From an uncultured Planctomycetia bacterium (lineage in GTDB: Bacteria; Omnitrophota; Gorgyraeia; 2-02-FULL-51-18), in the NCBI GenBank assembly GCA_964606485.1, contig CAZSGP010000005.1, positions 11,649-75,648 of the forward strand: a DNA stretch of 64,000 bases, written 5' to 3'. Below are positions 17,500 through 44,896 of the stretch, in pieces. Made by a program: the position numbers and the translations under genes. The first letter of the stretch is position 1. Each line of letters opens with the position of its first letter. The notes under the pieces are model-generated. The model ran no database searches. It had not been told where the DNA came from and worked only from the letters and a program-made list of their open reading frames with translations.

Positions 17500-17534
17500 A
17501 TCGGGGTAAACGCTTCTTTTTCTATAGGGGAAAT
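17500..17534 (-). promoter_or_regulatory. Bipartite direct-repeat motif, site a (ATCGGGGTAAAC-N13-TATAGGGGAAA)
   Basis: Member of the 11-copy motif family. It overlaps the stop of the giant gene and lies about 35 nt upstream of the start at 17465. Confidence 0.4.
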
Positions 17535-20500
17535 GACGCGGGGATCTGAACCTCGACCCTGTGTGTTTTGCGGTCATCGATCAGCGGTATCGTCATTTCA
17601 CTGCAAAGAACACCGTCGACTCTCACACTGCTACGCTGCTCCTCCTCGGTCTGTGAAATAGCAATCTGGTAGAGCGTCTTCTTGTAGTGATAATTCATTT
17701 TTAACGATTTCCAATCCACAGGAAGACAAGGCTTAAAAGTGAGTTTGTCTGCCTCGAGCTTTAGTCCTAGCAACGATTCGATAATCAGTCGGTACATGCC
17801 GCCTGCTGAGCCGGTATACCAGGTCCATCCGCCGCGGCCGGTGTGGGGCTCGAGCGCATAGACGTCAGCGGCGGCAACATAAGGCTCTACCTTGTAAGTC
17901 GAAATTTTTTCTGGGGTCGCCGAACGGTTGACCGGATTCATCATTCTCATGAGTTGCCAGGCGCGCTCATTATCCCCGAGATCTGCAAATGCCATCGCAG
18001 CCCAGATCGCCGCGTGCGTGTACTGTCCGCCATTTTCTCGAACACCCGGAATATACCCTTTGATATAACCGGGATTTAAATTAGATTTATCAAACGGTGG
18101 ATCAAGTAGTTGAATTAATCCGCTTTCTCTATGAATGAGACGCTGATCGAGCGCCGACATAGCTTGTTGAGCGCGTGCGTGACTGGCCGCTCCAGAGAGC
18201 ACGCTCCAACTTTGGGAGACAGAATCGATTTGGCACTCCACATTCTTTTTAGAACCGAGTGGCGAGCCATCATCAAAATAAGCACGCAGATACCACTCGC
18301 CGTCCCAACCGTACTGCTCGAGATTTTTCTGGAGTTTCTGGGCCTCGACCCGACAGCGCTCTACAAAAACGGCGTCCCCTCTTTTTTCGGCGATTTGTGC
18401 AAATTGCGTGAGCACTTCATAAAGGAAAAATCCCAGCCAAACACTTTCTCCTTTGCCGTGAATACCGACTAAATTCATGCCGTCATTCCAGTCGCCGCTT
18501 CCCATTAACGGCAAACCATGTTCACCAAATTGAAAATTTTTTAAGATGGAGCGTGTGCAGTGCTCGTACAAACTCGCTATTTCTTTTGAAGGACTAGGCG
18601 CATCGTAATACGATTCTTCTGATGCTTGAAGCGGCCGCCCCTCCAGAAAAAGAACCGGTGCATCCAATATCCCGGTGTCCCCGGTACCGCTCACGTACCG
18701 GTGCGTGGCCCACGCGAGCCAGAGAGAGTCATCCGAGCAGCGCGTGCGTACTCCGCGTCCCGACGGCGGATGCCACCAGTGCTGAACATCCCCTTCCTGA
18801 AATTGACGGCTCGCACAAAGAAGAATGTGCTCGCGCGCCAGATGCGGCTTCGCATGAATCAGTGCTGCCACGTCCTGCAATTGGTCTCGAAAACCAAAAG
18901 CTCCGCCGGATTGATAATGAGCGCTCCGGGCCCAGAGGCGGCACGCCAATGTTTGGTATAAAAGCCAGCCATTGGTGAGCACATTTAATGCCGGGTCAGG
19001 AGTTTCAATTTGAATAGTGCCAAGCGTCTCTTTCCAATATTGATTCACCTTTTCGAGCGCTTGACGCGCAGGAACAGATCCTCGGAAACGGTTCACCAAA
19101 TTTCGGACATCCTCAATACCCGACCCCGCTCCCAACATAAAAACAATTTCCCGTTCCTCTCCGCTTGCTAACCCGAAAGGAACTTGAATGGCTCCGCAGG
19201 GATCTAAAACCGCACCCACTTTTCCGGAAAGATGCGAAGATCTCATCGCAGCTGGATTTTTCATCGAGCCGTTACGCCCGATAAACTCGGTGCGATCACC
19301 ACTCACAGTACGCGATGTCTCGCTCACATCAAAAAAAGCAATGCGCTCGCCAAATTCCGGCACGTATGAATTTCGCGCGAAAAGCGCGCTCGTTTTGGAA
19401 TCTATTTCGGTCGTCACATGCATCACCGATTTTGACCGCAAGTCTCCAAGCACCCACTCCACGAAACCCGTCGCGGAAATCCGGCGCGGGCGGCCCGAAT
19501 GATTTTTTATTTTGAGTACGGAAAATTTCACCGCCGCGTCGAGCGCCACATAGACGCTTAGCTCTGAATAAAGTCCTTCTTCGAGATGTTCGAAAACACT
19601 GTATCCAAATCCGTGCCGGACAACGGAGGGTCCAAGACCTTGGGCGGGCATGGGTGTGGGAGACCAAAAGCGCCCCGTTTCTTCGTCCCGCAGGTAAATT
19701 GCCTCTCCGCTCACATCACTCACAAGATCGTTATTCCACGGCGTCAGACGAAACTCGTGAGCATTTTCATTCCAGGTATAAGCACTGCCATTTTCAGAAA
19801 TAACAGATCCAAAATGCGCATTAGCCAACACGTTTACCCACGGCAGCGGCGTTTTTTTTCCGGGCCCAAGATTCATGACGTATTCGCGCCCGTCCAATGT
19901 AAATCCACCTAGCCCATTAGAAAAAATAAGCTCGCGGCTCGGCAAACTTTTAAGTCCATCGCGCGAAATAACCGGGCTTTGAATTTTGGCAGGCAGGAAG
20001 CGTGACGTTTGCGCTTCTGTGGAAGCGCTACGATGAATTTGAACGGCTAACTTTCCTTGGTCATCCCTTATGATGGCGCGCGCGACCGATTGAAAGAGGA
20101 GTCGGTCCTCGTTGGATATTTGCTCCGAAGATCTCACAAAAATTCCTCCGGATCGATGCGATTTTTTCCCCTCTGCAATCCCGGCGATCAAACTCATAAT
20201 TTCTTCGTGAAGCGATTGTTGGTAGTCGCCATGATCTTCATTCCAGATCACGAGATCCACCGGCAAGCCCTTTAAACGCCAGTACGCGTACGCCTGAACC
20301 ATTTGACGCACAAGCTCCAAATTGACTAGCTCTCGAATCTGCACGAGAACAATCGGCAAGTCGCCCGAGATCGAATATCCCCACAAACCCGACTGACCCC
20401 TGCGATTTTTAATAAGAATATTGGGATCCGCACGCAAAGAAGCGTTGGTGTAAATCACGGAGTTCGCAATACGCCGGTACGTTTGGGCGTCCGATTCTGT

Positions 20501-23500
20501 AGCATTAATTTGCCGCAGCACCACTTGACCGTGCGTCCACGCGAGCTCCGAGACCCGATCCGCGAGCCGCCGGTCGTGATATTTCTCAATCAAACTTAAA
20601 GCCGCTTCGCGCGTTTCGCCGACACCGGTGACCATGTCCACCGTCGCCGATTGACCGGGCTCTAGAGTGAGCTGACACCGGATCGCGACAATTGGATCTA
20701 GCACTGAGCCTTGCGTCTCCGATAGCGCTGAAAGATCTTTCATTGCCTGAGGCTCCTCGAGTGTATTTCCGCGGCCGATGAATTTTAGTCGGTCCGTCTC
20801 GTAAGAAATTTTTTCAATTTTGGCTCCGTGTGCCGTCATCAAATGAAACATCCACGACACCTCTTCGTCCGAAGATCGCGGGCGGCGCGTGCAGAGAATG
20901 GATTGCAATCGGCTAATAATTTCAGTTTGGACAAAAAGATTGCTGAACGCAGGATGCAAAGCGTCCGAAGCACAGGGCGCCATCACCACCTCGGCGTAAC
21001 TTGTCACATCCAGTGTCTTGCGTGTCCGGGAACGGTTCGTGATGCGAAGCCGGCGCAATTCAATATCATCTTCCGGCGAAACAATCACCTCGTACTGGGT
21101 GTCAAAATCATGGTCGTGGCGTTGAAATTCCGCGCGGCCTTCTGAAAAAATAGCTTCGTAATTTTTTGGCCGCTTCAGAGTTGGTTGATAGGCCGCCGAC
21201 CAAAACTCTTGGCTCGTCAGATCACGGATGTAGCAAAAAGCGCCCCAGTTATCACACGTGCTATCCTCCCGCCACCGAGTCACCGCGAGATTTTTCCAAC
21301 GACTGTACCCGCCTCCCGCGTTTGTGACCATCACGTGATAACGACCGTTGGATAAAAGCTGCACTTCCGGCACCGCGGTGTCCGCATTTTTAAATCCTTG
21401 CACAGACGGCGGAGAATTACTGGAAGGCGCGCGAATTCCGGGCAGCTCAGTCGGGTGCGCGTGAAAGAGCGCCGCCTTTGGAACCCGTTCTTGGAGCAGC
21501 AACAGTGTGGCTTGAAACGGCGGGTCTGATTCAAACCGCTTTTGCATCAAAGGACCGAGCAACACATAAGCTAAGGAAAGTAAATTCATCCCCTGATGAT
21601 GTGCTAAATAAGATTGAAGAATCACTCCCTGCCCCCCGCGCCTTTTTCGGGAAGGTGTAAAATCAACCGCTTCATAAAATCCAAATTTTCCAAGCATTCC
21701 TTCGTCGGCCAGTCTCTGCAAATTTAAATAAGCGGCCTCATGGTTTACCATGAGTGCTAAATGCGTCGCATACGGAGCAATCACTAAATCGTCCGCAAGT
21801 CTCCGCTTCAGTCCCAGACCCGGCACGCCGAAAGCTCGGTACTGATAATTAAAATCGGAGTCCACCGTGTTGTAGCCGGATTCCGACACCCCCCATGGCA
21901 CCCCACGTTCTTTTCCATACTGTATTTGTTTTCTCACAACCGCTTTATAGGTCTGATTAAGGAGTGTGTTCGGATAAGCCGGCATGACTAAAAGCGGCAT
22001 GAGATATTCAAACATCGATCCGCTCCATGAAAGAAGAATGGAATCGCCTCCCGTGTTCGTTAAAAGGCGTCCGAGGGCAAACCAGTTTTCTTGCGAGATC
22101 TGACCCTGAGCAATCGCGACAAAACTACACAATCTGGCTTCCGACGCGAGCAGATCATAAAAACTCGGGTCGCGTCGCCGCTCATCGACGTTGTATCCAA
22201 TGGCTAAAAGGTGGCGTGTTTCGTCGTACAGAAAGCTGTATTCCATTCGAGCGCAATCGATGCATTGCAAAATAAGTTGCTCGATCAAGCGCAAACGATT
22301 TTTTGCGAGGACGCAGATTTCAGGGGCCGTTTCAAGCACTGACAATTCACGCAGCGTCGGAATACTAGCAAGCTTTGAGAGATCACCAAAAAAAACCAGC
22401 TCTTCTAAAGCGGAGCGACATTGAGCATCGAGCGCCCCTGACCACAAACCGGCTTGGCTGTCCCGGTGCTCGGAAAAATGTTGTTTTATTTCGCCGGCAC
22501 TTTTTGCGAGCGACTCCAAAAAATGTTTGGCAGAGACCGCTGTGATCGGTTTAAAATTCAAAGCGCTTTCCAGATCCCTCTGAAAGTTTGCGAGCGACTC
22601 CACCGTCCGGTCTTTGGCCTCCTCCCAAAAAACCTGAAAGGTATCACTCAAACCCTCGAACACGCGCGCGCTTAAAACCGGTTGGCCGCCAAGCGCCAAC
22701 AGCCCTTGTTGAAGCGTGATCAAATTAGCCGCGAGATTTCCGCTGTCCACCGTCGAGATATATCCGGGAATCAGAGGCTTAAGCGTTTGAGTGTCGTACC
22801 AATTATAGAAATGTCCCTGATGGCGCTTGAGTAGCGCCATCGTGCGCAGTGTGTTTTGAGTCCGCTCGAGCAGAACACTCATACCGGTGTAGCCAAAATC
22901 ATACGCCGACAAATTCGCGAGAAGCGAAAGTCCGATATTGGTCGGAGACGTTCGGTGAGCCACCCTCTCTAGCCGGTTTTCTTGAAAGTTATCGGGCGGC
23001 AACCAATGATCACCCGGCCCGACTAAATTCTCAAAGTAGGCCCACGTTTTTCGGCTCACCTTTCTTAAAAACCGAGCTTGGTCCTCCGTCATTTTTACAG
23101 AGTGTTGCAAAAGAGGACGGCTTATCCACCACGCCACCGCGGGTGAAACCATCCATAAAAATAAAATGGGAAGCGCCAAAACCAACACCTCACTTTTTAA
23201 TAGGAATAGATAAATCGTCATCGTCAAACTGATGAGAGGCGCTGCCCACATTAAACGGCAGGAAATCATTAAATCTTTTGAATCGTCGCAATGATGAGTA
23301 ACGGAGAGTTTCCATTCCAGAAGGCGTTTATGAGTAATCAGCATTCGGACCATCGTCCGCGCGATGGCGTCCAAACTCAGAAGCGCTTCATAAGGAAGAC
23401 AGCCTATTGCAAAAACAGCCTGAGCCAAACGTTGACCTATGGAACGAGCGAATGCGGCTAAATGATGACGCAGAAGAATTTCATCTGCTTTGCGGAAAAT

Positions 23501-26038
23501 TTCGAGAAACGAAAGTATTAAAGATGGGATTAAAATAATTCCGACGAGCAATAAAGTCCACTGCGCTGCCGCCGGCAAAACGATCCACCCGATTAAAAAT
23601 AAGAAGAGCTGCGCTACAGGGACGAGACTGCGCCGCAAATTATCAAAAATTTTCCACTGTGACAATCGGGAGATGGGGTTATTGATCCGATGCTCACCCA
23701 GACCTCGGACACTTGACCAGAGCCAGCGCACGAGTTGCCAATCGCCGCGAATCCAGCGATGCCGGCGGCGCACGTCAGTGTCGTAACGGGAAGGATATTC
23801 CTCGTAAAGCTGCACATCACTCAGTATTCCTGAGCGCAAATAACAACCCTCCAAAAGATCATGGCTTAATATTTGGCCGTTCGGGAAACGCCCTTTTAAA
23901 ACGCGTTTGAACATTTGGAGATCGTAAATGCCTTTACCCATAAACGAGCCTTCGCAAAAAACGTCCTGGTAAACATCGGAGACGGTGCGCGTATAAGGGT
24001 CAATCCCCGCTTCGCCCGCAAATAATTGTGCGTAAAGTGAGCGGCCGGCACCTGGAAGACTGACGCTCACCCGCGGCTGGAGAATTCCGTATCCTTCCAC
24101 GACGCACTGCCGAACCGCATCGTACCGGGGACGATTGAGCGGATGCGCCATGGCTCCAACCATTTGCCTCGCCGAACCACGCGGCAATTGAGTGTCTGTA
24201 TCCAAGGTGATCACGTATTTCACGTCCGATAAAACAACCGTGTCACCGACAATAAGCGAAAATCTATTTTTAAAATTACCGCACAAAAAGGAGTTTAAGT
24301 CCTCGAGTTTTCCGCGCTTTCGTTCGTGGCCCATCCAAATTTCATCTTGAGCATTCCAAACCCGCGGACGGTGAAAAAGAAAAAAGATGTCCCCTTTTTC
24401 GGACCTGTACTTTTGATTCAGGGTTTCAATATTTTTTTGGACAAGCTCGAGCAGCGGTCCATCTTCTTCAAGGTTTTTTCCCGATGCGTCTTGAAAATCC
24501 GTGAGCAGTGCAAAATGCAGATTTTCTCCCCGATTGGCCAAAAACCGGACTTCCAAAGCTTCGACTACGGCTTCAGCGCCCTGAGCGTTCGTGAGCATAG
24601 TAGGAACCACCACTAGTGTTCGAAGCTCCGGAGGAATTCCTCGAGACAAATCCATTCGCGGCAAAAGACGCGGCGCAACACACAGCATGGACAAAAAATT
24701 TACTAGCTCCACCGCGGGTTGACTCGTAAAAATAAATGTAAAAAAATAAATCAAACCCATCACCCAGGAAGGAACGCCACTCGTCAGAACGTGTGACAGA
24801 AGACCCGCAGTTAACGTTCCCGTAATCAATAAAATGACGCTTAGGTAAAGAGTGAGTGGAAATTGGGCCATCGTCTTTAAAAAACGGTCTGTCATTGACG
24901 GCCGCATTTGAACGCTGCGTTCGAGACTCAAAACCCCTTTATCGATAAGATAAAATCCAACGTCGGCCGCTCTGCCATTATCTCCTTCCGGCGGAGGACT
25001 TTCGCAGGTCAATCGGATCGCTCGACGCGCCACTTCCTCTTCGGAAAAACTGCTTTTTTTAGCAATTCTTTCCACCGCGTGCCGGTAACGGTCGCGGGTC
25101 GCAAAATCCATCTTTGAATAAATTCCGCTAGGTTCCTTTTGCAGGCACCGCTCGACGGCACTGTTGGTTTCAACAAACTCGCTCCAGTCCATCGTCCTCA
25201 GCAAACGAAGACTGCCGATGCTGTTGCTCACGGAAATTTGATCCGCCGCTTGCTTCTGATTCTCCTGAGCGACCAATTGTTGGATGGTAAAATTGGATTC
25301 GGATAACCGGTGTTTGATCCAATTGAGCGTCAGTGCCGGTTCCAGATTGTGTTCTTGCAGCAAACGCGCAAGTTCTGCCACAAACGAAGCAGACATCGGT
25401 GGGTTTGATCGCACCATGTCTGCCACCACCAACATCAGGCTTTTTGGATCTTTATGGGCCATTTCAATCATCTGATCTGCCCAAAAATTAGCTAGATTTC
25501 GATCATTCCGGTCAGCGGCAATCGAAGACCCCACTCTCCTAAAATTTTCTATAAGAGCCAAGCGCAGCATGATGGGAATCGCCCACAATTCGCCGAGCTT
25601 AAGAACCGAAATCTCCTGGTAAGATGCGATAAAACCGCCCAAACTTTCAGGGTCCACCCGCCCATCTCCATGCGAGATGGTTTCCAAAGCGATGTCGTAA
25701 ACCCGCGGAAGCATGGCAGACGGATCTTTGGCCAAACGAGGCAGCTCACGGCTGTAATTTTTTGGCAAATGTCGTTTTGCTGTTTGAATTTGTTCCTCGA
25801 TCAGATAAAAATTATCCAACAGCCATTCCTCGGCAGGTGAAATATGGCGTCCCGCCTGTGCTGTTGCGGACAAAAGGGATCCTATCTTCGTCAGGATTTT
25901 TTCATTGTTCTTGAGGCGCGCGAGAAGTAATTCTGGAGTTTTTTTGGAGACCAAGTGATGCGAGCCCGCCAGCGTTTTTCCGTGCTGCTTCATTTGATCG
26001 GTGCTAAACAATTCCGATCTTAGCGGCGGCTCGCGCAT
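17522..26038 (-). CDS. Cyclic beta-1,2-glucan synthase-like giant protein (NdvB/ChvB/Cgs family: membrane GT84 + glucoamylase-like (alpha/alpha)6 + C-terminal GH94 phosphorylase)
   Basis: Single 2838-aa ORF. The GT region has LVVVPTML...FALLTDFQDA...WMGHERKRGKLEDLN and is flanked by TM clusters. The middle region has NIGLSLLANLSAYDFGY and LLSWSGSMFEYLMP. The C-terminal GH94-like region has GWDGEWYLRAYFDDG. Length and domain order match NdvB/Cgs. Confidence 0.8.
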   Translation of the reverse strand: MREPPLRSELFSTDQMKQHGKTLAGSHHLVSKKTPELLLARLKNNEKILTKIGSLLSATAQAGRHISPAEEWLLDNFYLIEEQIQTAKRHLPKNYSRELPRLAKDPSAMLPRVYDIALETISHGDGRVDPESLGGFIASYQEISVLKLGELWAIPIMLRLALIENFRRVGSSIAADRNDRNLANFWADQMIEMAHKDPKSLMLVVADMVRSNPPMSASFVAELARLLQEHNLEPALTLNWIKHRLSESNFTIQQLVAQENQKQAADQISVSNSIGSLRLLRTMDWSEFVETNSAVERCLQKEPSGIYSKMDFATRDRYRHAVERIAKKSSFSEEEVARRAIRLTCESPPPEGDNGRAADVGFYLIDKGVLSLERSVQMRPSMTDRFLKTMAQFPLTLYLSVILLITGTLTAGLLSHVLTSGVPSWVMGLIYFFTFIFTSQPAVELVNFLSMLCVAPRLLPRMDLSRGIPPELRTLVVVPTMLTNAQGAEAVVEALEVRFLANRGENLHFALLTDFQDASGKNLEEDGPLLELVQKNIETLNQKYRSEKGDIFFLFHRPRVWNAQDEIWMGHERKRGKLEDLNSFLCGNFKNRFSLIVGDTVVLSDVKYVITLDTDTQLPRGSARQMVGAMAHPLNRPRYDAVRQCVVEGYGILQPRVSVSLPGAGRSLYAQLFAGEAGIDPYTRTVSDVYQDVFCEGSFMGKGIYDLQMFKRVLKGRFPNGQILSHDLLEGCYLRSGILSDVQLYEEYPSRYDTDVRRRHRWIRGDWQLVRWLWSSVRGLGEHRINNPISRLSQWKIFDNLRRSLVPVAQLFLFLIGWIVLPAAAQWTLLLVGIILIPSLILSFLEIFRKADEILLRHHLAAFARSIGQRLAQAVFAIGCLPYEALLSLDAIARTMVRMLITHKRLLEWKLSVTHHCDDSKDLMISCRLMWAAPLISLTMTIYLFLLKSEVLVLALPILFLWMVSPAVAWWISRPLLQHSVKMTEDQARFLRKVSRKTWAYFENLVGPGDHWLPPDNFQENRLERVAHRTSPTNIGLSLLANLSAYDFGYTGMSVLLERTQNTLRTMALLKRHQGHFYNWYDTQTLKPLIPGYISTVDSGNLAANLITLQQGLLALGGQPVLSARVFEGLSDTFQVFWEEAKDRTVESLANFQRDLESALNFKPITAVSAKHFLESLAKSAGEIKQHFSEHRDSQAGLWSGALDAQCRSALEELVFFGDLSKLASIPTLRELSVLETAPEICVLAKNRLRLIEQLILQCIDCARMEYSFLYDETRHLLAIGYNVDERRRDPSFYDLLASEARLCSFVAIAQGQISQENWFALGRLLTNTGGDSILLSWSGSMFEYLMPLLVMPAYPNTLLNQTYKAVVRKQIQYGKERGVPWGVSESGYNTVDSDFNYQYRAFGVPGLGLKRRLADDLVIAPYATHLALMVNHEAAYLNLQRLADEGMLGKFGFYEAVDFTPSRKRRGGQGVILQSYLAHHQGMNLLSLAYVLLGPLMQKRFESDPPFQATLLLLQERVPKAALFHAHPTELPGIRAPSSNSPPSVQGFKNADTAVPEVQLLSNGRYHVMVTNAGGGYSRWKNLAVTRWREDSTCDNWGAFCYIRDLTSQEFWSAAYQPTLKRPKNYEAIFSEGRAEFQRHDHDFDTQYEVIVSPEDDIELRRLRITNRSRTRKTLDVTSYAEVVMAPCASDALHPAFSNLFVQTEIISRLQSILCTRRPRSSDEEVSWMFHLMTAHGAKIEKISYETDRLKFIGRGNTLEEPQAMKDLSALSETQGSVLDPIVAIRCQLTLEPGQSATVDMVTGVGETREAALSLIEKYHDRRLADRVSELAWTHGQVVLRQINATESDAQTYRRIANSVIYTNASLRADPNILIKNRRGQSGLWGYSISGDLPIVLVQIRELVNLELVRQMVQAYAYWRLKGLPVDLVIWNEDHGDYQQSLHEEIMSLIAGIAEGKKSHRSGGIFVRSSEQISNEDRLLFQSVARAIIRDDQGKLAVQIHRSASTEAQTSRFLPAKIQSPVISRDGLKSLPSRELIFSNGLGGFTLDGREYVMNLGPGKKTPLPWVNVLANAHFGSVISENGSAYTWNENAHEFRLTPWNNDLVSDVSGEAIYLRDEETGRFWSPTPMPAQGLGPSVVRHGFGYSVFEHLEEGLYSELSVYVALDAAVKFSVLKIKNHSGRPRRISATGFVEWVLGDLRSKSVMHVTTEIDSKTSALFARNSYVPEFGERIAFFDVSETSRTVSGDRTEFIGRNGSMKNPAAMRSSHLSGKVGAVLDPCGAIQVPFGLASGEEREIVFMLGAGSGIEDVRNLVNRFRGSVPARQALEKVNQYWKETLGTIQIETPDPALNVLTNGWLLYQTLACRLWARSAHYQSGGAFGFRDQLQDVAALIHAKPHLAREHILLCASRQFQEGDVQHWWHPPSGRGVRTRCSDDSLWLAWATHRYVSGTGDTGILDAPVLFLEGRPLQASEESYYDAPSPSKEIASLYEHCTRSILKNFQFGEHGLPLMGSGDWNDGMNLVGIHGKGESVWLGFFLYEVLTQFAQIAEKRGDAVFVERCRVEAQKLQKNLEQYGWDGEWYLRAYFDDGSPLGSKKNVECQIDSVSQSWSVLSGAASHARAQQAMSALDQRLIHRESGLIQLLDPPFDKSNLNPGYIKGYIPGVRENGGQYTHAAIWAAMAFADLGDNERAWQLMRMMNPVNRSATPEKISTYKVEPYVAAADVYALEPHTGRGGWTWYTGSAGGMYRLIIESLLGLKLEADKLTFKPCLPVDWKSLKMNYHYKKTLYQIAISQTEEEQRSSVRVDGVLCSEMTIPLIDDRKTHRVEVQIPASFPL

Positions 26039-30349: not shown

Positions 30350-30399
30350 AGCGGTTCTCCTTAAGTGTTTTCAGTATAGACAGGTAAGTGAGCGCCAAC

Positions 30400-36610: not shown

Positions 36611-36952
36611 TACGCGTCCAAAATCATCCTCGAAGCGGACAATATCCTCTTCCTCCAAGATCTCTCCAAGCTGGAGCTCCATGAACACAAGCGGCAAGCT
36701 TCCGATGTTTTGCATCCGGTGAATTTCTCCGACCGCAATTTCTACAAATGCCCCTGCCACAACCTCCCACTGGTGATTTTCGACCGTCACAAGGCCGCGG
36801 CCAGACACGATGAGCCACTTCTCAGAACGACTTAAGTGTTTTTGCAGACTAAAACGCAGTCCGGCATTCACCTCTATTCGCTTGGTCAGCGCGCCGTTTT
36901 CTATTCCGCACACCTCAAAATTTCCCCACGGCCGTAATTGTTTAAATGGCAT
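36590..36952 (-). CDS. Cupin domain protein (mannose-6-phosphate isomerase type II C-terminal-like)
   Basis: Cupin motifs ...LQKHLSRSEKWLIVSGRG...GEIHRMQN. Confidence 0.65.
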   Translation of the reverse strand: MPFKQLRPWGNFEVCGIENGALTKRIEVNAGLRFSLQKHLSRSEKWLIVSGRGLVTVENHQWEVVAGAFVEIAVGEIHRMQNIGSLPLVFMELQLGEILEEEDIVRFEDDFGRVDSLIAV

Positions 36953-38778: not shown

Positions 38779-40336
38779 GCGTTTGCCTAATGACGGAAAA
38801 ACCGAGCCTAGAAGTAACTGCTCTAATTAGCCGCTCCAGATAATTTTTATCTTTGGGGCTAAATACCCACACATAACAGACCGCCGCGTAAAGCGCCCCG
38901 AGCAGAGAAACAAGCAGTATAAAATCAGGCAGATCCTGCCTTCCTTGATGAAGCTGTCGCAGGGCCATCAAACCGCCACCCCAAACCAGAAGGGACCAAA
39001 AAAAAGTTTTAAGAAACGCTTCTTTCCAAAATTGCCATAGCGGAATCTTGGAGAGATGACACGCATACGTCACATTAAAAAATCCGTAATACATCACTTT
39101 GATTGCGGACGTCGCTAATACAAAACCGGTCAGACCCATTCCAAGCGGTTTGGCTAATAAATAACCGACGCCCACGCACAGCGCCGTGCTGACCGTATCC
39201 ACAATGGTCGGCCATTTGAGTTTGGCGTAGGCGGTTGCTAGATTGCCGCTAGCCGCCAGCGGCACCGAAAATAGGGTTGCGATCAAACTCAAAACCATAA
39301 TCCGAGAGGACAGCTCATAACCGCTTCCAATCCACAACCGGATCACAGGACCTGCGTAGATCATCAAAAATATGCAGATTGGGATACAAATGAGCGATAA
39401 CGCTTTGGTATAAACGAAGTAGAGCTCTTTTAATTTTTCATTCTCCCCTTTGGCCGCAAGCTCCGTAAAAGTCGGCGCTAGCGTCCAGGCCGGCTCTTTG
39501 AACAGCCGGTCCATAAGAGCGGCACATTTAATGCCGATGGCGTAAATGGCGTTTGACGCCGGCCCCCATAAAATATTGATAAGAATGTTAACGGTGTTGT
39601 CATACAAAATCGCATTGCTATGACCCAAAAGCGTAAAAAAGCTAAAAGAAACCATCGAGCGAACTTTATTCCATCTAAAAAGACTCAAGCGAATCTTAAG
39701 ATCGGGGACGATTTTTTTAGACCAGAAAAATACGAAAAAGTTCTGCGCCCATGTCATCGCAAGATACACCACGCCGTAAGTCGGAAGGGATACGTATTTT
39801 TCAGGCAAGACGGAAAAAGCGATGAAGATCACCACCGCGCGCAAGACTAGTCCCGCGGAGTCGGATATATTGATCAAATCAAAACGTTGTTTGGCAAATA
39901 GCACCGACCAGAAAACAATATTGGGGATCGTAATGGCAAATGCGACCGTCATGATCGAAAAAAGAATCACGCTCTGGGAGTGATACGCATCCGGCACGCT
40001 GAAAATCGCCGGCACTAAACGGCTAAACGCCAATCCGCCCACGAGCACCACCGCCGACAACACAAAAAATATGCCGCGGCCGGTTGAAAGATACTGCGAG
40101 AATTCTTCCGAATCGCCCTGCGCCAGTGAAAAAGTTGCGTATCGCGACAGCGCCACGCGGATGCTCGTGCTAAACATCTCCACAAAACGCATCAGCGATT
40201 CAAATAGGACAATGAGCCCAAAAACTTCCAGGCCTAGTTTAACGATTAAAAAAGGGACGAGAAAAAATCCGAGAGCCATGCCAATGCCACGACCAATGTA
40301 GGTGCTGAAAATATTGATAAAAATCTGTTTTTTCAT
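38768..40336 (-). CDS. Wzx-type oligosaccharide flippase (MOP superfamily)
   Basis: 522 aa with about 14 TM segments. The ATG overlaps the upstream gene's stop as ATGA. Confidence 0.7.
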   Translation of the reverse strand: MKKQIFINIFSTYIGRGIGMALGFFLVPFLIVKLGLEVFGLIVLFESLMRFVEMFSTSIRVALSRYATFSLAQGDSEEFSQYLSTGRGIFFVLSAVVLVGGLAFSRLVPAIFSVPDAYHSQSVILFSIMTVAFAITIPNIVFWSVLFAKQRFDLINISDSAGLVLRAVVIFIAFSVLPEKYVSLPTYGVVYLAMTWAQNFFVFFWSKKIVPDLKIRLSLFRWNKVRSMVSFSFFTLLGHSNAILYDNTVNILINILWGPASNAIYAIGIKCAALMDRLFKEPAWTLAPTFTELAAKGENEKLKELYFVYTKALSLICIPICIFLMIYAGPVIRLWIGSGYELSSRIMVLSLIATLFSVPLAASGNLATAYAKLKWPTIVDTVSTALCVGVGYLLAKPLGMGLTGFVLATSAIKVMYYGFFNVTYACHLSKIPLWQFWKEAFLKTFFWSLLVWGGGLMALRQLHQGRQDLPDFILLVSLLGALYAAVCYVWVFSPKDKNYLERLIRAVTSRLGFSVIRQTHEF

Positions 40337-41583
40337 TGAACATTCTTAGAGAAAATTTCGGAGTAGATTAATTTCTGTTGGTATTCGAGCCGCGCATGGC
40401 AGTCGGTTAATTTTTGTCTCAGCTCTTTCCTTTGTTCAAAAAGACTGACAAACTTTTCTCCCATCTGGTCAAACTCGGCTGACGGCAGCGCAAATCGTTC
40501 CATGCCATACGACTGGAAAAGCCCCGTAATCTTGCGCTGCATGTAGCCATTCGTATAAAGTCCAAGCGACGGAACACCCTGAGACAACGCAAACACATTG
40601 GCATGAAAGCGCGTCCCGATAAAAAGATCCATCCCGGCAATGCGCGCGCGGCGATCTGCCACAGACCCTACCTCGACGGGAGGGTAATATTCAAACTGCT
40701 TCCCTTGAACCGCTTCGATTGACGCACTTTCCTTGCGATCGTCCGCAAAATTTCCAGTCTCCATGGGAATAAACTCCACTTTTAAAACGGAGGGCTTTAT
40801 CGCGATAGCCAGCCGGTTGAGTGCCTCGACAACCAGCTGATAGTAATTTATCGATTTTGAGTAGGCGGCTAGGTTAAGCCCCACCCTGACCGCTCCGGAC
40901 TGAGCAACGCCCCGCTCAGAAATCGGCAAAAATGAGGCTTCATCCATTCCGACCCACAAATTTTTATGCTCGCCTGAAATCTCTGTCATGGAAAAATTCT
41001 CGCGAAGCAGTACGACATTTGCGCGGCCCAGCATGTCATCCACCATCGACCGTTCGCCTGCCCGCCAATCCGGTCCGATCGTGTGACCTAAGTAATAGAC
41101 GCGTTTTTTCGCGTCCTCAGCCAACATCGAAAGATAGTGCGTCTCGATCACGTTGTAGGGACTGGTCAGATAACCGCCGCCGACAAAAATGACGCACTCT
41201 GATTGGCGCATTCGCTCACAAATTAATTCCCCATGCCGAAGCAATTTCCGAAAAGCAAGTGATGCGACCGGGTACAAAACACGATAAATCTGACGAAGTT
41301 TTCCGGACAAGCGATGAGGGCGGCGCAACCAAGGAAGAACCTTGAAAGAAACAGTCTCGCAAGGCACGCCTTCGGGAACCCACAGCTTTTCGGTTCCCGG
41401 TTCTGTCCAGATCACAAAACGACTTTCCGGAAAAAGGGCTCTAATCCGAAGAATAGTGGCATGCAAAATAGCCTGATCGCCGGGATTGTTGCAGGTATAC
41501 CCGCCAATCAGAAAAAATGTTTTTACGCGGATACTTCCCTCCAGTCCTTTGTGACCCATAGAGATTTTATAAATCTCCACCAT
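40333..41583 (-). CDS. Polysaccharide pyruvyl transferase family protein (WcaK/CsaB-like)
   Basis: N-terminal FFLIGGYTCNNPGDQAILHATI and overall PS_pyruv_trans-like organisation. Confidence 0.6.
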   Translation of the reverse strand: MVEIYKISMGHKGLEGSIRVKTFFLIGGYTCNNPGDQAILHATILRIRALFPESRFVIWTEPGTEKLWVPEGVPCETVSFKVLPWLRRPHRLSGKLRQIYRVLYPVASLAFRKLLRHGELICERMRQSECVIFVGGGYLTSPYNVIETHYLSMLAEDAKKRVYYLGHTIGPDWRAGERSMVDDMLGRANVVLLRENFSMTEISGEHKNLWVGMDEASFLPISERGVAQSGAVRVGLNLAAYSKSINYYQLVVEALNRLAIAIKPSVLKVEFIPMETGNFADDRKESASIEAVQGKQFEYYPPVEVGSVADRRARIAGMDLFIGTRFHANVFALSQGVPSLGLYTNGYMQRKITGLFQSYGMERFALPSAEFDQMGEKFVSLFEQRKELRQKLTDCHARLEYQQKLIYSEIFSKNVQ

Positions 41584-42794
41584 TTCCCAAGTTGCATTTT
41601 TAGACTCAATTGTGTCGAAAATAATCTTGAAAGAACTGGATTTTGACGCGCTTTAATTTTTTTAAACTTTAGGAACCAACTAAAGAACGCCCGGGAGCCG
41701 TATTGGTCCTCGAGTGTTACGAGGCTGATTTTTTCCTGGATCGTTCGCCAATAATCGAGCGCGCTCTCTCCCCCAAAAAAAATGTAATAGTCGTTTAAGA
41801 TTCTTTTTTTGAGATCTGAAAGCGTATCGGTCGTCATTTTAAAATTGCAAAGAGCCGGATCGATGTTATTGATCAGAAGTTCGCAGATCGTCCGCAGGCA
41901 TTTCTCGCACTTGCCGCAATTTAAACTTTCAAACTGCATCCAACACACTCTTAACTGAGAGTAATATTTCGGTTGGCTTTTCAAATACGTGAGTATCTTC
42001 TCAGCGCGACTCAAGTGGTGATTGTCCGCCACAACACCGGTGCCCGCCCATTGGATCTGCCTCACCAGATCTTTTTCGCTTCCGCAGGTATAGACACAAC
42101 CGGCTCGGTGCGAGCAGCTAGCGAGCATCAAGGTTTTCACCGAATCGTACGCAACCGGCGCAACAAGCGCCGACAAAAGGAGTCCGTGTGCAACTTCGCC
42201 GTACCAATTTTTAGAGTAAGGTTTTAAATGGTCCAAATTCCATATCTCCCGCACGTCCGTGTGGATGGATTCAATGGAGGTGTTCTCACTCGTCGCAAAG
42301 CTTTTCAGTTTATTTTTATAAGACTCGATAAATGTCTGACGCGACAAAGGAATGTCCGCTCCAAAAATCGTAAAAAGTCGCGGATTTTTATCTTTATGAT
42401 GCAGATACGTGGTCATCGAATCCAGTCCGCCGCTAAAAAGCATGGCATGGCGCGTCGGTGCAAATGTATTTTTTACTAAGTGCGCATCCAGTCTCGTTTT
42501 AAAAGACCATTTTTTAGAAAACCATTTTTTAAAATGCTCGGTGCAGCGCTCAAGACTGAGCGCGTAGTCTTTATCAAGCTCCGGCAAGATCAGTTCGGCA
42601 CCGGTCGCCCAAGCAATGGGCGCCATGACAGCGGCAAAAGGAATGGAATTAATGCTTTCGACCGGGTTTTCAATGGGCCGGTCGTATTCGATGAAAAAAC
42701 TTTTTTGGTTAAATACTTTGAGTGAACTTGAAAATTTATACGTCAGTCTGTTTTCTTCGCAGAGCGTTTTTTCTAGTCGAATCACGTGTTTCAT
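41523..42794 (-). CDS. PP-loop ATP pyrophosphatase superfamily enzyme (N-acetyl-sugar amidotransferase-like)
   Basis: SGGLDS PP-loop (AMLFSGGLDSMTT) plus C-terminal CGKCEKCLRT. Confidence 0.5.
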   Translation of the reverse strand: MKHVIRLEKTLCEENRLTYKFSSSLKVFNQKSFFIEYDRPIENPVESINSIPFAAVMAPIAWATGAELILPELDKDYALSLERCTEHFKKWFSKKWSFKTRLDAHLVKNTFAPTRHAMLFSGGLDSMTTYLHHKDKNPRLFTIFGADIPLSRQTFIESYKNKLKSFATSENTSIESIHTDVREIWNLDHLKPYSKNWYGEVAHGLLLSALVAPVAYDSVKTLMLASCSHRAGCVYTCGSEKDLVRQIQWAGTGVVADNHHLSRAEKILTYLKSQPKYYSQLRVCWMQFESLNCGKCEKCLRTICELLINNIDPALCNFKMTTDTLSDLKKRILNDYYIFFGGESALDYWRTIQEKISLVTLEDQYGSRAFFSWFLKFKKIKARQNPVLSRLFSTQLSLKMQLGKWWRFIKSLWVTKDWREVSA

Positions 42795-44863
42795 GAAGAT
42801 TTGCCTCCGGAAATGAGTGCCATCGAATAAACCGATCCTGTGTCACGGGTTAAAAATAAAGCGGAACCGTCCGGTTTAAACGTCATGGCCGCAGCGCCCG
42901 ACCCATAAGGCAGATTGGCTGTGATGTCTGTCCACGTGACTCCTTTATCTGAACTCAAATAAACCGCACTCGGCACGCCGCCATTCCATTTCACGACGCT
43001 GACAGCAATTTGATTGGAGTTAACCGGATTAATCGCAATCGCTTCACAGGTGCCGCTGCCTTCAAATTTTTTTAAAACGCTCCAGGTAGACCCTTTGTTG
43101 GTTGAAACGTGAAGAGTTGGTCCGTTCGAGTCCGCGGCCGCATAGACCGTTTGGTCGCGAGCAACCACCAAATCAAAAATAGCTCCGGAAAAAACTTGTG
43201 ACCAGCTTGCTCCATAATTTTCACTGCGGTAAATGCCGCCACCGCTACCGGAAGCATTTGGAACCGCCGTCCAATAAATGCGAGAAGGTTCGACAGGATC
43301 TACGGCTAAACCGTTATAAATTCGAAGGGAGCCGGGCTGACTCACTGGCCGCGTCCAATGCGCGCCGCCATCCAGAGACGAAAAAAATCCTCCACCGTCA
43401 TCTCCGTCTATTCCACAGTAATAACGGTTGGGATTTAGCGGGTCACGCGCGAGCGCGCGCATATACCCTTTGTCCCACACCGTGTTCACTTGGGGATAAG
43501 CAGACGGCAAGCCCTCATGCACCGCCCGAAAAGTTCTGCCACCATTTTCGCTAAGAAGGATTTGATTCGCTGGACCATTCCAAGGAGAATTTGTCGCGAC
43601 AATTTTTTTGCCGTTCACATTCACGCGCCATACGTGTCCCGCAACGGTGCTATCATAAAAAGCGCCTGGAATGAGCGATCCGAAAGTAACCCCTTCGTCG
43701 CTCGAGGAAAGAAGACCCTGATCCATTGTGCCTAAAAATAATTGATTGCCCGAAAAGGCAATGTCGGACCCGACAGTGTTGGAAGAGCCTTTAATTTTTT
43801 CGATCCAGCTTAGTCCACCGTCGTCTGAGCGGAATACACTCCAGTAATCGCTGAAATACAAAATGTTTGGATTAAATGGATCAAACACAGCTGACAGCGG
43901 CCAGGTGAGCCCCTTTTTCCAGATCCGCGTCGGATTGGCGGCTAAATCATAACGAATATTTTTTCCCGTGTCGGTCCAAGTAGATCCTCCATCCGCGCTC
44001 AGAAACATTTGACCGCTCCATCCGTCGCGCCAACCCACAAAAATTTTAACCGCGCCGGTTGCGTCGCCCGCAACAGACAGCCGGTATGCTTCTCCGCTAG
44101 ACGCAGAGATAGGGGCGGTCGTGTTCCATGTCACGCCCCGCGTAGAACTCCACGCGATTTTTTTACCGGTTGTCACATAAATCGTCTTATTAAAAGAGAC
44201 GATGTCATAAATTTTATTGGCTTGAATCGGCGGTGTGTTCCACATGCTACTCTTAAAATTAAAACGTCTTAAGCCCGAAGCAGAGCCCGCAAACAAAACA
44301 CCGTTGTCGCTAGAAAGACACAGCGCGCTGATCGCGACACTTTTTTCAAAAGGTTTTTCAACGCCGCCTAAATTTTTCCAGGTGTTTCCATGATCCAGCG
44401 AAATAAGCACTCGTCCGTCGTTCGTACCGGCCATCACTTTTCCTGAGTCAGTGGGATCTACAACCAGCGCGCGATAATTATTTGCGCGCGTAAAATGCAT
44501 TTTGTTTGTGGAGGCGAGATTCATCCAATCCGCGCCGGCGTTCATTGAGCGCTGAATGCCCGCGGCACTTGCCGCATATAAGACGTTCGAGTCAGAAGGC
44601 GCAACCGCTAATGCCACCATGTGAATATTCGCAAGGCCCCTGCTCTTAGAAACCCACTGATCGCCGTGATTATCGCTGCGCCAGTTGCCTCCGACATCCG
44701 AAATGAGATAAACCCGTCCGTTCACCCGTGGATCGGGTGTCACCATGGGATACGCGCCACCACCGTTCCAACCTGAAAAATGCCATTTTAAATTTTTAGG
44801 CAATGCCGCCCACGTCGGAGAAGCGGCTAACAACAACACGAGAAGCGCAATTATCTTTTTCAT
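42791..44863 (-). CDS. Secreted BNR/Asp-box repeat protein (sialidase / GH74-like beta-propeller)
   Basis: Signal peptide MKKIIALLVLLLAASPTWA and 8 or more S-x-D-x-G-x-T-W repeats (SADGGSTWTD, SDDGGLSWIE, SLDGGAHWTR, STNKGSTWSV, SSDKGVTWTD and others). Confidence 0.8.
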   Translation of the reverse strand: MKKIIALLVLLLAASPTWAALPKNLKWHFSGWNGGGAYPMVTPDPRVNGRVYLISDVGGNWRSDNHGDQWVSKSRGLANIHMVALAVAPSDSNVLYAASAAGIQRSMNAGADWMNLASTNKMHFTRANNYRALVVDPTDSGKVMAGTNDGRVLISLDHGNTWKNLGGVEKPFEKSVAISALCLSSDNGVLFAGSASGLRRFNFKSSMWNTPPIQANKIYDIVSFNKTIYVTTGKKIAWSSTRGVTWNTTAPISASSGEAYRLSVAGDATGAVKIFVGWRDGWSGQMFLSADGGSTWTDTGKNIRYDLAANPTRIWKKGLTWPLSAVFDPFNPNILYFSDYWSVFRSDDGGLSWIEKIKGSSNTVGSDIAFSGNQLFLGTMDQGLLSSSDEGVTFGSLIPGAFYDSTVAGHVWRVNVNGKKIVATNSPWNGPANQILLSENGGRTFRAVHEGLPSAYPQVNTVWDKGYMRALARDPLNPNRYYCGIDGDDGGGFFSSLDGGAHWTRPVSQPGSLRIYNGLAVDPVEPSRIYWTAVPNASGSGGGIYRSENYGASWSQVFSGAIFDLVVARDQTVYAAADSNGPTLHVSTNKGSTWSVLKKFEGSGTCEAIAINPVNSNQIAVSVVKWNGGVPSAVYLSSDKGVTWTDITANLPYGSGAAAMTFKPDGSALFLTRDTGSVYSMALISGGKSS

Positions 44864-44896
44864 TCGATCATCGTAAAACAAAGGGATGCACTATGA

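What the first reader, a model, noticed from the sequence alone, without database searches (positions are those of the whole stretch)
17522..44881. 27-kb single-strand envelope polysaccharide super-operon that ends in a cyclic-glucan-synthase-like giant gene and lacks an NdvA/Cgt-type ABC exporter
A complete Wzx/Wzy-dependent toolkit lies on one strand with very tight spacing. It includes a BNR protein, a PP-loop amidotransferase-like enzyme, a pyruvyl transferase, Wzx, two GT2 enzymes, a cupin, an outer-membrane barrel, Wza, Wzz, Wzy, a GT4, TagA, a PGT and GalE. At least seven gene junctions overlap as ATGA. Directly downstream and co-oriented are an acyltransferase-3, a methyltransferase-like gene and the 2838-aa NdvB/Cgs-like GT84-GH94 gene. 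In characterised systems (Brucella, rhizobia) cgs/ndvB pairs with the ABC exporter ndvA/cgt and the OpgC-like succinyltransferase cgm. Here the exporter is absent from the neighbourhood and the gene is embedded in a Wzy-type pathway. This may indicate a different export route or product, for example a periplasmic or surface beta-1,2-glucan linked to the exopolysaccharide/LPS pathway.
Basis: partly seen in the sequence, partly recalled or inferred. Interest (0 to 1): 0.65.

Follow-up and report, generated by a model that had tools for sequence, protein, structure and literature searches.

The report
Cyclic-glucan synthase ending an exopolysaccharide operon

Summary
Eighteen co-oriented, tightly packed minus-strand genes (17522-44881) form a standard Wzx/Wzy-dependent exopolysaccharide (EPS) toolkit. 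It is followed by GalE, an acyltransferase-3 (AT3), a divergent SAM-methyltransferase-like gene and a 2838-aa protein.

That protein is a genuine full-length Cgs/NdvB/ChvB. It matches the A. tumefaciens Cgs cryo-EM chain end to end (2017 bits). All ten residues named as functionally important in the structure paper, plus S1101, are conserved.

No ABC ATPase exists anywhere in the 64-kb window. That is not unusual:
- Only 2 of the 80 nearest cgs loci have a fused ABC-exporter-like ORF within 10 kb.
- Annotated plasmid copies in Azospirillum and Serratia stand alone.
- In Brucella, cgs (BAB1_0108) and cgt (BAB1_1017) are unlinked.

So the inference of a different export route or product is unsupported.

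What is unusual is the context. None of the 80 loci has any homolog of the 17 EPS-cluster genes near cgs. Here cgs starts 6 nt after the upstream stop, in a PGT-GalE-AT3-MT-cgs run with junctions of 6 nt or less.

Most likely this is a lineage-specific co-transcription arrangement, with an unlinked exporter. It is a new member of a known kind and of modest interest.

The parts
17522..26038 (-). [quoted passage not shown] N-terminal domain, transmembrane (TM) segments, GT84 glycosyltransferase, cyclase (CY/GH189, which Pfam calls 'Glycoamylase'), and GH94 phosphorylase.
   Evidence: phmmer against PDB: 8rf0/8rf9 A. tumefaciens Cgs, 2017 bits, query 40-2809 against chain 60-2818. Pfam: GH94 supersandwich 576 bits, Glyco_hydro_94 425 bits, Glycoamylase 67.6 bits. 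Key residues conserved, with the A. tumefaciens (Atu) equivalent in brackets: D514 (D527), D613/D615 (D624/D626), Y682 (Y694), D727 (D739), R761-W762 (R773 RW motif), S1095/D1098 (S1101/D1104), E1300 (E1300), D2385 (D2393), D2519 (D2528). Hydrophobic segments at about 391-415, 805-847 and 929-972.
26045..26839 (-). 264-aa cytoplasmic protein, a divergent class-I SAM-methyltransferase-like protein. Its stop lies 6 nt before the cgs start, and its start overlaps the AT3 stop (ATGA).
   Evidence: Own Pfam hit is weak (Methyltransf_31, E=0.006). Its few homologs hit Methyltransf_23/31/11/12: 90 at E<1e-3 among 1.8 billion representatives, best 51% identity. No predicted TM segment.
26836..27885 (-). 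349-aa integral-membrane acyltransferase-3 (AT3) family O-acyltransferase.
   Evidence: Pfam Acyl_transf_3, 90.9 bits. No OpgC_C hit even at E<=10. At least 6 hydrophobic segments. ATGA overlaps on both sides.
27882..28865 (-). GalE, UDP-glucose 4-epimerase.
   Evidence: TIGR01179, 431 bits against a cut-off of 262. Pfam Epimerase 206 bits.
28868..30268 (-). Priming polyprenyl-phosphate hexose-1-phosphate transferase (PGT).
   Evidence: TIGR03025 EPS_sugtrans, 421 bits against a cut-off of 296. Bac_transf 236 bits.
30449..31222 (-). WecG/TagA/CpsF-family glycosyltransferase.
   Evidence: PF03808 217 bits and TIGR00696 152 bits.
31203..32348 (-). GT4 glycosyltransferase.
   Evidence: Glycos_transf_1 103.7 bits, Glyco_transf_4 64 bits.
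32345..33622 (-). Wzy-type polymerase.
   Evidence: Wzy_C 61.9 bits against a cut-off of 31.7. About 10 hydrophobic segments.
33690..34772 (-). Wzz/PCP-like chain-length protein without a kinase domain.
   Evidence: Wzz 24.5 bits and GNVR 25.4 bits, both just below Pfam cut-offs. EpsF 49 bits. TM segments at the N and C ends.
34773..35348 (-). Short Wza/OPX-type polysaccharide export protein.
   Evidence: Poly_export 75 bits, SLBB 50 bits, TIGR03027-like 101 bits (below cut-off).
35360..36508 (-). Outer-membrane beta-barrel, BBP2_2 type, resembling the PEP-CTERM-associated TIGR03016/EpsL proteins.
   Evidence: PF10082 58 bits. TIGR03016 62 bits (below cut-off).
36590..36952 (-). 120-aa cupin resembling the C-terminal part of mannose-6-phosphate isomerase.
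   Evidence: PF01050 93 bits.
36942..38778 (-). Two GT2 glycosyltransferases (36942-37850 and 37840-38778).
   Evidence: Glycos_transf_2 86.9 and 80.8 bits.
38768..40336 (-). Wzx/MOP-family flippase.
   Evidence: Polysacc_synt_3 36.9 bits against a cut-off of 23. At least 9 hydrophobic segments.
40333..41559 (-). Polysaccharide pyruvyl transferase.
   Evidence: PF04230 90 bits. CsaB/WcaK-like.
41523..42794 (-). 423-aa protein with an SGGLDS PP-loop motif and a C-terminal CGKCEKC motif. Function unresolved.
   Evidence: Motif read from the translation. Only a sub-threshold QueC hit (E=0.15) at the motif. No PDB hit. AlphaFold2 pLDDT 37, so the model is unusable.
42791..44863 (-). 690-aa secreted or membrane-anchored BNR/sortilin-Vps10-type beta-propeller, a putative glycoside hydrolase.
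   Evidence: Sortilin-Vps10 86 bits. F510_1955 glycosylhydrolase-like 124.5 bits (below cut-off). N-terminal hydrophobic segment.
15410..17465 (-).
   Evidence: Gene calls on the identical Logan contig. GGDEF 120 bits. No Pfam or PDB hit for the 201-aa protein, and its AlphaFold2 pLDDT is 39.

Best explanation

By analogy with A. tumefaciens Cgs, it would work as follows. It autoglucosylates Tyr682. Its GT84 domain extends a beta-1,2 chain from UDP-glucose on the cytoplasmic face of the membrane. Its GH94 phosphorylase domain trims chain length. Its cyclase domain releases a ring into the cytoplasm.

The Cgs transmembrane domain forms no channel, so a separate exporter is needed. As in Brucella and in almost all compared cgs loci, that exporter is simply encoded elsewhere in the genome.

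In this uncultured, probably Omnitrophota, lineage cgs has become the last gene of a tightly packed Wzx/Wzy-dependent, probably pyruvylated, exopolysaccharide (EPS) cluster. It is most likely co-transcribed at least with PGT-GalE-AT3-methyltransferase. Cyclic glucan and EPS, which both draw on UDP-glucose, would then be expressed together. The two pathways remain mechanistically separate.

Shown here: gene content, family membership, conserved residues, junction spacing, absence of an ABC gene in 64 kb, and lack of this synteny elsewhere.

Inferred: co-transcription, the product, an unlinked exporter, and the taxon.
For: - Cgs membership. End-to-end match to 8rf0/8rf9, with all residues that PMC10901819 names as key conserved.
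- Need for a separate exporter. [quoted passage not shown]
- Unlinked exporters are the norm. 2 of 80 loci have a fused ABC-like ORF within 10 kb. No ABC family appears among the 25 most frequent Pfam families listed for the 120 immediate neighbours. Azospirillum and Serratia copies are solitary. Brucella has BAB1_0108 versus BAB1_1017.
- Tight coupling. cgs starts 6 nt after the upstream stop, and the PGT/GalE/AT3/MT junctions are +2, -4 and -4 nt. No intergenic terminator-like site was found, and terminator-like hits are no more frequent than in shuffled sequence.
- Lineage-specific linkage. tblastn with all 17 cluster proteins found nothing near cgs in 80 loci, even at E<=0.05, apart from one marginal GT2 hit. 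The 447 neighbouring proteins fall into 296 clusters.
- cgs is compositionally native. GC3 is 0.521 against a window mean of 0.521 +/- 0.029.
- Taxon. 7 of 8 named top PEPC hits are Candidatus Omnitrophica, at about 61% identity.
Against: - Co-transcription is inferred from spacing only. Internal promoters inside upstream coding sequence cannot be excluded, and the sigma-70 scan is uninformative for this phylum.
- The rest of the genome could not be searched, so an NdvA/Cgt homolog is assumed, not shown.
- The AT3 and methyltransferase lie immediately next to cgs and could act on the glucan rather than on the EPS. That would make the linkage functional rather than merely regulatory.
- The taxon rests on one marker at about 61% identity.
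Confidence: 0.6

Rival explanations
1. Dedicated modification module. The membrane AT3 O-acyltransferase and the cytoplasmic methyltransferase-like protein directly upstream of cgs act on the cyclic glucan. AT3 would O-acylate it in the periplasm, as Cgm/OpgC does. The methyltransferase would O-methylate it in the cytoplasm. PGT-GalE-AT3-MT-cgs, or at least AT3-MT-cgs, would then be a functional unit producing a substituted cyclic glucan.
For: - AT3, MT and cgs are joined by ATGA, ATGA and a 6-nt gap.
- Brucella modifies its cyclic glucan with a membrane protein, Cgm (PMC2995898; PMC11071196).
- AT3 proteins are membrane O-acyltransferases of extracytoplasmic glycans (family knowledge).
Against: - The AT3 shows no OpgC_C (Cgm-type) signal even at E<=10.
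- No AT3 or u264 homolog lies within 10 kb of cgs in any of 80 loci.
- AT3 and methyltransferase genes are routine components of EPS and O-antigen clusters, so they may equally decorate the EPS.
Confidence: 0.2
2. Fortuitous adjacency. cgs landed next to the EPS cluster by rearrangement or old horizontal transfer. It is expressed from a promoter inside the upstream coding sequence, with no regulatory or functional tie to the cluster.
For: - cgs has no conserved neighbours across taxa and behaves as a solitary, mobile gene. It sits on 174 plasmid records, and its closest relatives span several phyla at 52-64% identity.
- The whole 48-kb stretch is single-stranded anyway.
Against: - A 6-nt gap leaves no intergenic promoter.
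- Four consecutive junctions of 6 nt or less are typical of translationally coupled operon genes.
- GC3 is identical to the surroundings, so the arrangement is not recent.
Confidence: 0.13
3. The enzyme feeds a beta-1,2-glucan, periplasmic or surface-bound, into the Wzx/Wzy/Wza route or onto the EPS/LPS, without an NdvA-type ABC exporter.
For: - No ABC ATPase in 64 kb.
- Physical embedding in the cluster, next to Wzx, Wza and an outer-membrane barrel.
Against: - Absence of a linked exporter is the family norm.
- All residues for tyrosine-primed synthesis, cyclisation and phosphorolysis are kept, which predicts a free cyclic product rather than a lipid-linked one.
- Wzx flippases act on undecaprenyl-PP-linked repeat units, not free cyclic glucans (family knowledge).
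- No other cgs locus shows this linkage.
Confidence: 0.05

Closest known systems
Agrobacterium tumefaciens ChvB/Cgs (PDB 8RF0, 8RF9; PMC10901819) and its orthologs NdvB (Sinorhizobium) and Cgs (Brucella)
   Same: - Same length class (2838 aa, against a 2818-residue deposited chain).
- Collinear over residues 40-2809.
- Same domain order: N-terminal domain, TM, GT84, cyclase, GH94.
- All named catalytic residues, the UDP-binding residues, the RW motif and the Tyr primer site are conserved.
   Different: - More distant from alphaproteobacterial copies than from an environmental clade. tblastn identity is 35-42% to alphaproteobacterial plasmid or chromid copies and 52-64% to the environmental clade spanning Beta-, Gamma- and Deltaproteobacteria and other phyla.
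- The host is probably Omnitrophota.
- It is the terminal gene of an EPS cluster rather than lying next to chvA/ndvA.
Brucella Cgs-Cgt-Cgm three-protein cyclic glucan system
   Same: - A synthase that needs a separate exporter.
- Synthase and exporter genes are not adjacent in Brucella either (BAB1_0108 versus BAB1_1017).
- A membrane acyltransferase-type protein is available nearby in this window.
   Different: - No Cgt homolog is visible in the 64 kb.
- The adjacent AT3 matches PF01757, not the OpgC_C family.
- A methyltransferase-like gene with no counterpart in Brucella lies between the AT3 and cgs.
Wzx/Wzy-dependent EPS clusters with pyruvyl and acyl decoration (for example colanic acid wca, succinoglycan exo, Lactobacillus/Methylobacillus eps)
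   Same: Priming PGT, GT2/GT4/WecG glycosyltransferases, Wzx, Wzy, PCP, OPX, pyruvyl transferase, AT3 and GalE in one tight co-oriented cluster.
   Different: - Ends in a cgs gene. I did not find this in 80 cgs loci or in the searched literature.
- The PCP lacks a tyrosine-kinase domain.
- The OPX is short (191 aa) and paired with a BBP2_2/EpsL-like barrel.
Thermoanaerobacter italicus CGS cyclisation domain (GH189; PDB 8WY1; PMC10834661)
   Same: Residues 983-1521 match at E=2.6e-124, which identifies the middle region as the transglycosylase/cyclase domain.
   Different: 8WY1 is a solved isolated domain of a Gram-positive enzyme. Here the domain is part of a full three-activity protein.

Membership tests
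[quoted passage not shown] | Full-length collinear architecture: N-terminal domain, TM, GT84, cyclase (GH189), GH94 | tested here: met
   One phmmer alignment, query 40-2809 against 8rf0 chain 60-2818, 2017 bits. 8wy1 cyclase domain E=2.6e-124. GH94 Pfam domains present.
[quoted passage not shown] | GT84 active-site residues, in A. tumefaciens (Atu) numbering: D527, D624, D626, catalytic base D739 and the R773 RW motif | tested here: met
   Window D514, D613, D615, D727 and R761-W762 align to them.
[quoted passage not shown] | Autoglucosylated primer tyrosine (Atu Y694) in the IF1h loop | tested here: met
   Window Y682 in GIDPY aligns to Atu IDPY.
[quoted passage not shown] | Cyclase-domain acidic residues (Atu D1104, E1300; S1101) | tested here: met
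   Window S1095, D1098 and E1300.
[quoted passage not shown] | GH94 phosphorylase catalytic residues (Atu D2393, D2528) | tested here: met
   Window D2385 (FRDQ) and D2519 (GDWND).
[quoted passage not shown] | Six transmembrane helices flanking the GT domain | tested here: inconclusive
   A Kyte-Doolittle scan finds hydrophobic blocks at about 391-415, 805-847 and 929-972, consistent with paired helices. No dedicated topology predictor was run.
[quoted passage not shown] | Product is cyclic beta-1,2-glucan (DP about 17-25) | not testable with these tools
   Needs expression and TLC/MS/NMR.
Rhizobiaceae-type chvA/ndvA-chvB/ndvB linked locus | HlyB/MsbA-like ABC exporter gene adjacent to or within a few genes of cgs | tested here: not met
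   No ABC signature or ABC Pfam domain in the 64-kb window. The same is true of 78 of 80 related loci.
Cgm/OpgC cyclic-glucan succinyltransferase | OpgC_C-type membrane acyltransferase | tested here: not met
   The AT3 matches only PF01757 Acyl_transf_3, with no OpgC_C hit at E<=10. It belongs to the same broad kind of enzyme but not that family.
Wzx/Wzy-dependent polysaccharide cluster | Priming PGT, Wzx flippase and Wzy polymerase | tested here: met
   TIGR03025 421 bits, Polysacc_synt_3 36.9 bits, Wzy_C 61.9 bits. All are above their cut-offs.
Wzx/Wzy-dependent polysaccharide cluster | PCP (Wzz/Wzc) and OPX (Wza) export pair | tested here: met
   OPX: Poly_export 75 bits. PCP: Wzz and GNVR just below Pfam cut-offs, but with the typical two-TM topology and EpsF similarity. 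The PCP assignment is the weaker of the two.
Single transcription unit ('super-operon') | One transcript spanning 44.9 kb down to 17.5 kb | not testable with these tools
   Only spacing is available. There are about ten overlaps (nine measured exactly), five junctions with gaps of 0-11 nt, and three gaps of 67-180 nt where internal promoters could sit.

The most novel reading that the evidence does not exclude
In an Omnitrophota-like bacterium, cgs has been recruited into an envelope-polysaccharide operon as a functional module with a non-OpgC acyltransferase and a rare methyltransferase. The module would yield a new O-acylated and/or O-methylated cyclic beta-1,2-glucan, co-produced with a pyruvylated EPS and exported by something other than an NdvA/Cgt-type transporter.
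Probability: 0.1. Interest if true: 0.55.

Novelty: new member of a known kind. Interest (0 to 1): 0.3.

Why it matters
[quoted passage not shown] This locus shows an intact Cgs in a candidate-phylum organism, wired into an EPS operon.

The comparison also shows that outside Rhizobiaceae cgs is typically a solitary gene, without a linked exporter or modifier. That is useful for annotation: 'no adjacent ndvA' should not be read as a new pathway.

If the adjacent acyltransferase and methyltransferase act on the glucan, the locus would offer new decorated cyclic glucans. These molecules have biotechnological uses as solubilisers (PMC11071196). Otherwise the finding is an ordinary new family member in an unusual context.

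Tried and rejected
1. The search for homologous proteins with the whole 2838-aa protein failed. The GT84 segment worked, but the hits were only gene fragments of 1026 aa or less. Two look-ups showed these are frameshift-split full-length cgs genes with no EPS or ABC context.
2. Retrieval of the 206-kb NCBI contig failed. Exact-protein look-ups returned only Logan contigs from SRR12487046, of 49, 10 and 6 kb. The region beyond the window could therefore not be searched for ndvA. The 3 kb beyond the right-hand end (L083) has no ABC gene.
3. The metagenome scan with a u264 alignment gave one 1.4-kb contig, so no context.
4. Synteny around PEPC in the closest PEPC-bearing contigs is not conserved, so no close relative is available.
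5. The listing of cluster members gave no organism names.
6. AlphaFold2 single-sequence models of the 423-aa and 201-aa proteins had pLDDT 37 and 39. They were unusable, so no fold search was run.
7. PDB sequence searches for those two proteins gave only noise.
8. Rfam found only three tRNAs and no riboswitch upstream of the cluster.
9. Recent horizontal transfer of cgs was considered and rejected on composition (GC3 equals the window mean). Ancient transfer remains likely, because the closest homologs are in unrelated phyla.
10. I looked for a positive control for ABC adjacency in a rhizobial replicon (H13, L090). That copy is also solitary and the record is unannotated. The motif scan did detect ABC ATPases in L014, L018, L039 and L047.

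Full report
**1. What is in the sequence**

All ORFs of interest lie on the minus strand. In transcription order the genes are:
- a secreted BNR/sortilin-type propeller (42791-44863)
- a 423-aa protein whose only recognisable feature is an SGGLDS PP-loop motif (41523-42794)
- a pyruvyl transferase
- Wzx
- two GT2 enzymes
- a cupin
- a BBP2_2/EpsL-like outer-membrane barrel
- a short Wza/OPX
- a kinase-less Wzz/PCP
- Wzy
- a GT4
- a WecG/TagA transferase
- a priming phosphoglycosyl transferase, PGT (TIGR03025, 421 bits)
- GalE (TIGR01179, 431 bits)
- an Acyl_transf_3 membrane protein, AT3
- a 264-aa methyltransferase-like protein (u264)
- the 2838-aa gene at 17522-26038

With start codons refined against the gene calls on an identical Logan contig, the junctions from BNR to cgs are -4, about -37, -4, -11, -11, -11, +81, +11, 0, +67, -4, -20, +180, +2, -4, -4 and +6 nt. 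About ten junctions overlap in some form.

No intergenic terminator-like hairpin lies on the coding strand. Terminator-like matches are no more frequent than in shuffled sequence.

Co-orientation by itself means little here. Every real gene from 11450 to 59939 is on the minus strand, including unrelated housekeeping genes.

**2. [quoted passage not shown]

Against PDB sequences it gives one alignment covering residues 40-2809 to the A. tumefaciens Cgs cryo-EM chains 8RF0 and 8RF9 (2017 bits). Residues 983-1521 match the T. italicus cyclisation domain 8WY1 (E=2.6e-124). The C-terminal third matches GH94 phosphorylases.

I took the functionally important residues from the structure paper (PMC10901819) and located each one in residue-level alignments. 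A. tumefaciens (Atu) residues and their window equivalents are:

| Atu residue | Window residue |
|---|---|
| D527 | D514 |
| D624 / D626 | D613 / D615 |
| Y694 (autoglucosylated primer site) | Y682 |
| D739 | D727 |
| R773 (RW motif) | R761-W762 |
| S1101 / D1104 | S1095 / D1098 |
| E1300 | E1300 |
| D2393 | D2385 |
| D2528 | D2519 |

Nothing suggests a degenerate or re-purposed enzyme.

**3. The exporter argument**

There is no ABC transporter in the window. No Pfam ABC domain was found in any gene. A six-frame motif scan finds a Walker A only in DnaX and no LSGGQ signature anywhere.

This absence is what one expects for the family:
- The structure paper states that the Cgs membrane domain forms no export channel and that Cgt exports the product. 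An exporter is therefore needed, but it need not be adjacent.
- In B. abortus, cgs is BAB1_0108 and the transporter is BAB1_1017. In O. anthropi they are Oant_0124 and Oant_2082 (PMC2691993). Close linkage is documented for Ensifer and Sinorhizobium (PMC4051167).
- I fetched the 80 best cgs loci from one genome per GTDB species (52-64% identity, up to 10 kb of flank on each side). Only two (L018, L039) contain a fused ABC-exporter-sized ORF with both motifs.
- Pfam scanning of the 120 immediately flanking genes found 93 families. None of the 25 most frequent families listed was an ABC family, and Acyl_transf_3 was not among them either.
- Annotated plasmid-borne copies in Azospirillum B510 and Serratia proteamaculans also stand alone.

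So 'no ndvA next door' carries no information about export route or product.

**4. What is unusual**

The context is unusual. tblastn with all 17 upstream cluster proteins against the 80 loci returns nothing at E<=1e-5. At E<=0.05 it returns a single marginal GT2 hit. The 447 genes flanking cgs in those loci fall into 296 similarity clusters, with shared neighbours only within Oxalobacteraceae. cgs is thus normally a solitary gene.

Here it begins 6 nt after the stop of u264. It is preceded by three further junctions of 4 nt or less, back to the priming transferase. That leaves no intergenic room for a promoter. I infer co-transcription of at least PGT-GalE-AT3-u264-cgs. The 180-nt gap upstream of PGT is the most likely place for an internal promoter.

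The arrangement is not a fresh insertion, because cgs GC3 (0.521) equals the mean of the other 41 genes (0.521 +/- 0.029).

**5. The organism**

Window proteins are singletons at 90% identity. They occur on a 206-kb NCBI contig and in Logan assemblies of SRR12487046. The PEP carboxylase in the window is 57-63% identical to its best database hits, and 7 of the 8 hits that carry an organism name are 'Candidatus Omnitrophica' MAGs. I take the host to be an Omnitrophota-affiliated bacterium, tentatively.

The closest Cgs proteins come from Proteobacteria, Desulfobacterota-type lineages, a Dehalococcoidia MAG, Bacteroidota and Verrucomicrobiota. The gene also sits on 174 plasmid records. Ancient horizontal spread of cgs is therefore likely. 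Synteny around PEPC is not conserved in the nearest available contigs, so no close relative could be used to test conservation of the arrangement.

**6. The two genes between GalE and cgs**

The AT3 protein is a polytopic membrane acyltransferase (PF01757, 91 bits). It has no OpgC_C signal, so it is not a Cgm/OpgC ortholog.

u264 is cytoplasmic and very rare: 90 homologs at E<1e-3 among 1.8 billion representatives. Its closest relatives score on class-I SAM-methyltransferase models.

Either gene could decorate the EPS, which is the usual role of such genes in Wzx/Wzy clusters, or the glucan. The data do not decide between these. I give the glucan-modification reading about 0.2.

**7. Mechanism proposed**

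Inferred from the conserved residues and the Agrobacterium model:
- UDP-glucose-dependent autoglucosylation of Y682.
- GT84 elongation.
- GH94 length control.
- Cyclase release of a cytoplasmic ring.
- Export by an unlinked transporter.

Separately, the upstream genes would assemble an undecaprenyl-PP-linked repeat unit (PGT, WecG, GT4 and two GT2 enzymes, with pyruvylation). Wzx would flip it, Wzy and the PCP would polymerise it, and the OPX and barrel pair would secrete it. GalE and the shared UDP-glucose pool give a metabolic rationale for co-expression.

**8. Verdict**

The family assignment is confirmed. The interpretation that the missing exporter implies a new route or product is not supported.

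The locus is a new, divergent member of a known enzyme family in an unusual, lineage-specific genomic context and a poorly known phylum. Interest is modest (0.3). It would rise only if the AT3/methyltransferase pair proves to act on the glucan, or if a complete genome lacks any Cgt-type exporter.

Noticed in passing
window 15410-16456; loci L005, L016, L029, L042, L054, L060, L078: A GGDEF (often GGDEF-EAL-HAMP) protein is the first co-oriented gene downstream of cgs in 7 of about 56 loci from several classes. A PAS-GGDEF gene is the third gene downstream of cgs in the window. This may be a recurrent link between cyclic-glucan synthesis and c-di-GMP signalling, although Cgs lacks a PilZ domain (PMC10901819).
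   Followed up: partly
window 30274-30351 (minus strand), in the 180-nt TagA-PGT gap: A 25-codon ORF (MTLITFVVLGAVLTMKQYHERNQTF) lies behind an AAGGAG Shine-Dalgarno-like motif. It could be a small hydrophobic peptide or a leader in the only sizeable gap of the downstream half of the cluster.
   Followed up: no
window 16473-17465: Two small secreted proteins lie directly after cgs: a 75-aa peptide (17238-17465) and a 201-aa protein with a signal peptide and a beta-rich C-terminus ending in YLDDIQYE, which resembles a carbohydrate-binding module. Neither has a Pfam or PDB hit, and the AlphaFold2 model of the 201-aa protein has pLDDT 39. No homolog lies near cgs in the 80 other loci.
   Followed up: partly
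window 26045-26839 and proteins P0252-P0273: The rare u264 methyltransferase-like domain recurs mostly as an internal domain of giant proteins of 1300-7200 aa. One of these also carries protein-kinase and Kdo/WaaP-like kinase domains (P0257). Another carries a uridine-kinase-like domain (P0252).
   Followed up: partly
window 47563-56508: A second co-oriented envelope-type gene set lies upstream: a C39-like peptidase with TPR repeats, DUF6627, a 794-aa phosphodiesterase/EEP fusion, a GT4, a 756-aa protein with no Pfam hit, a TPR protein and DUF3108. An autotransporter follows at 57029-59176. This may be a further surface-glycan or secretion module.
   Followed up: no
search of PLSDB plasmids: Full-length cgs homologs (44-49% identity) are carried on large plasmids of Enterobacterales, including Serratia, Klebsiella, Pantoea, Enterobacter and even E. 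coli. They are annotated only as 'glucoamylase family protein' or 'GH94 protein'. This is a systematic under-annotation of cyclic glucan synthases.
   Followed up: partly
window 11450-59939: About 40 consecutive genes over 48 kb all lie on the minus strand, and GC skew is uniformly negative across the window. This is a strong strand bias that makes co-orientation uninformative for operon calls in this genome.
   Followed up: no
window 44920-45600: A Dps/ferritin-like gene and a 43-aa entericidin-like gene sit only about 56 nt upstream of the first EPS gene. They lie downstream of a PAS-HisKA_3 kinase / LuxR-type response-regulator pair (45706-47468) that could regulate the cluster.
   Followed up: no
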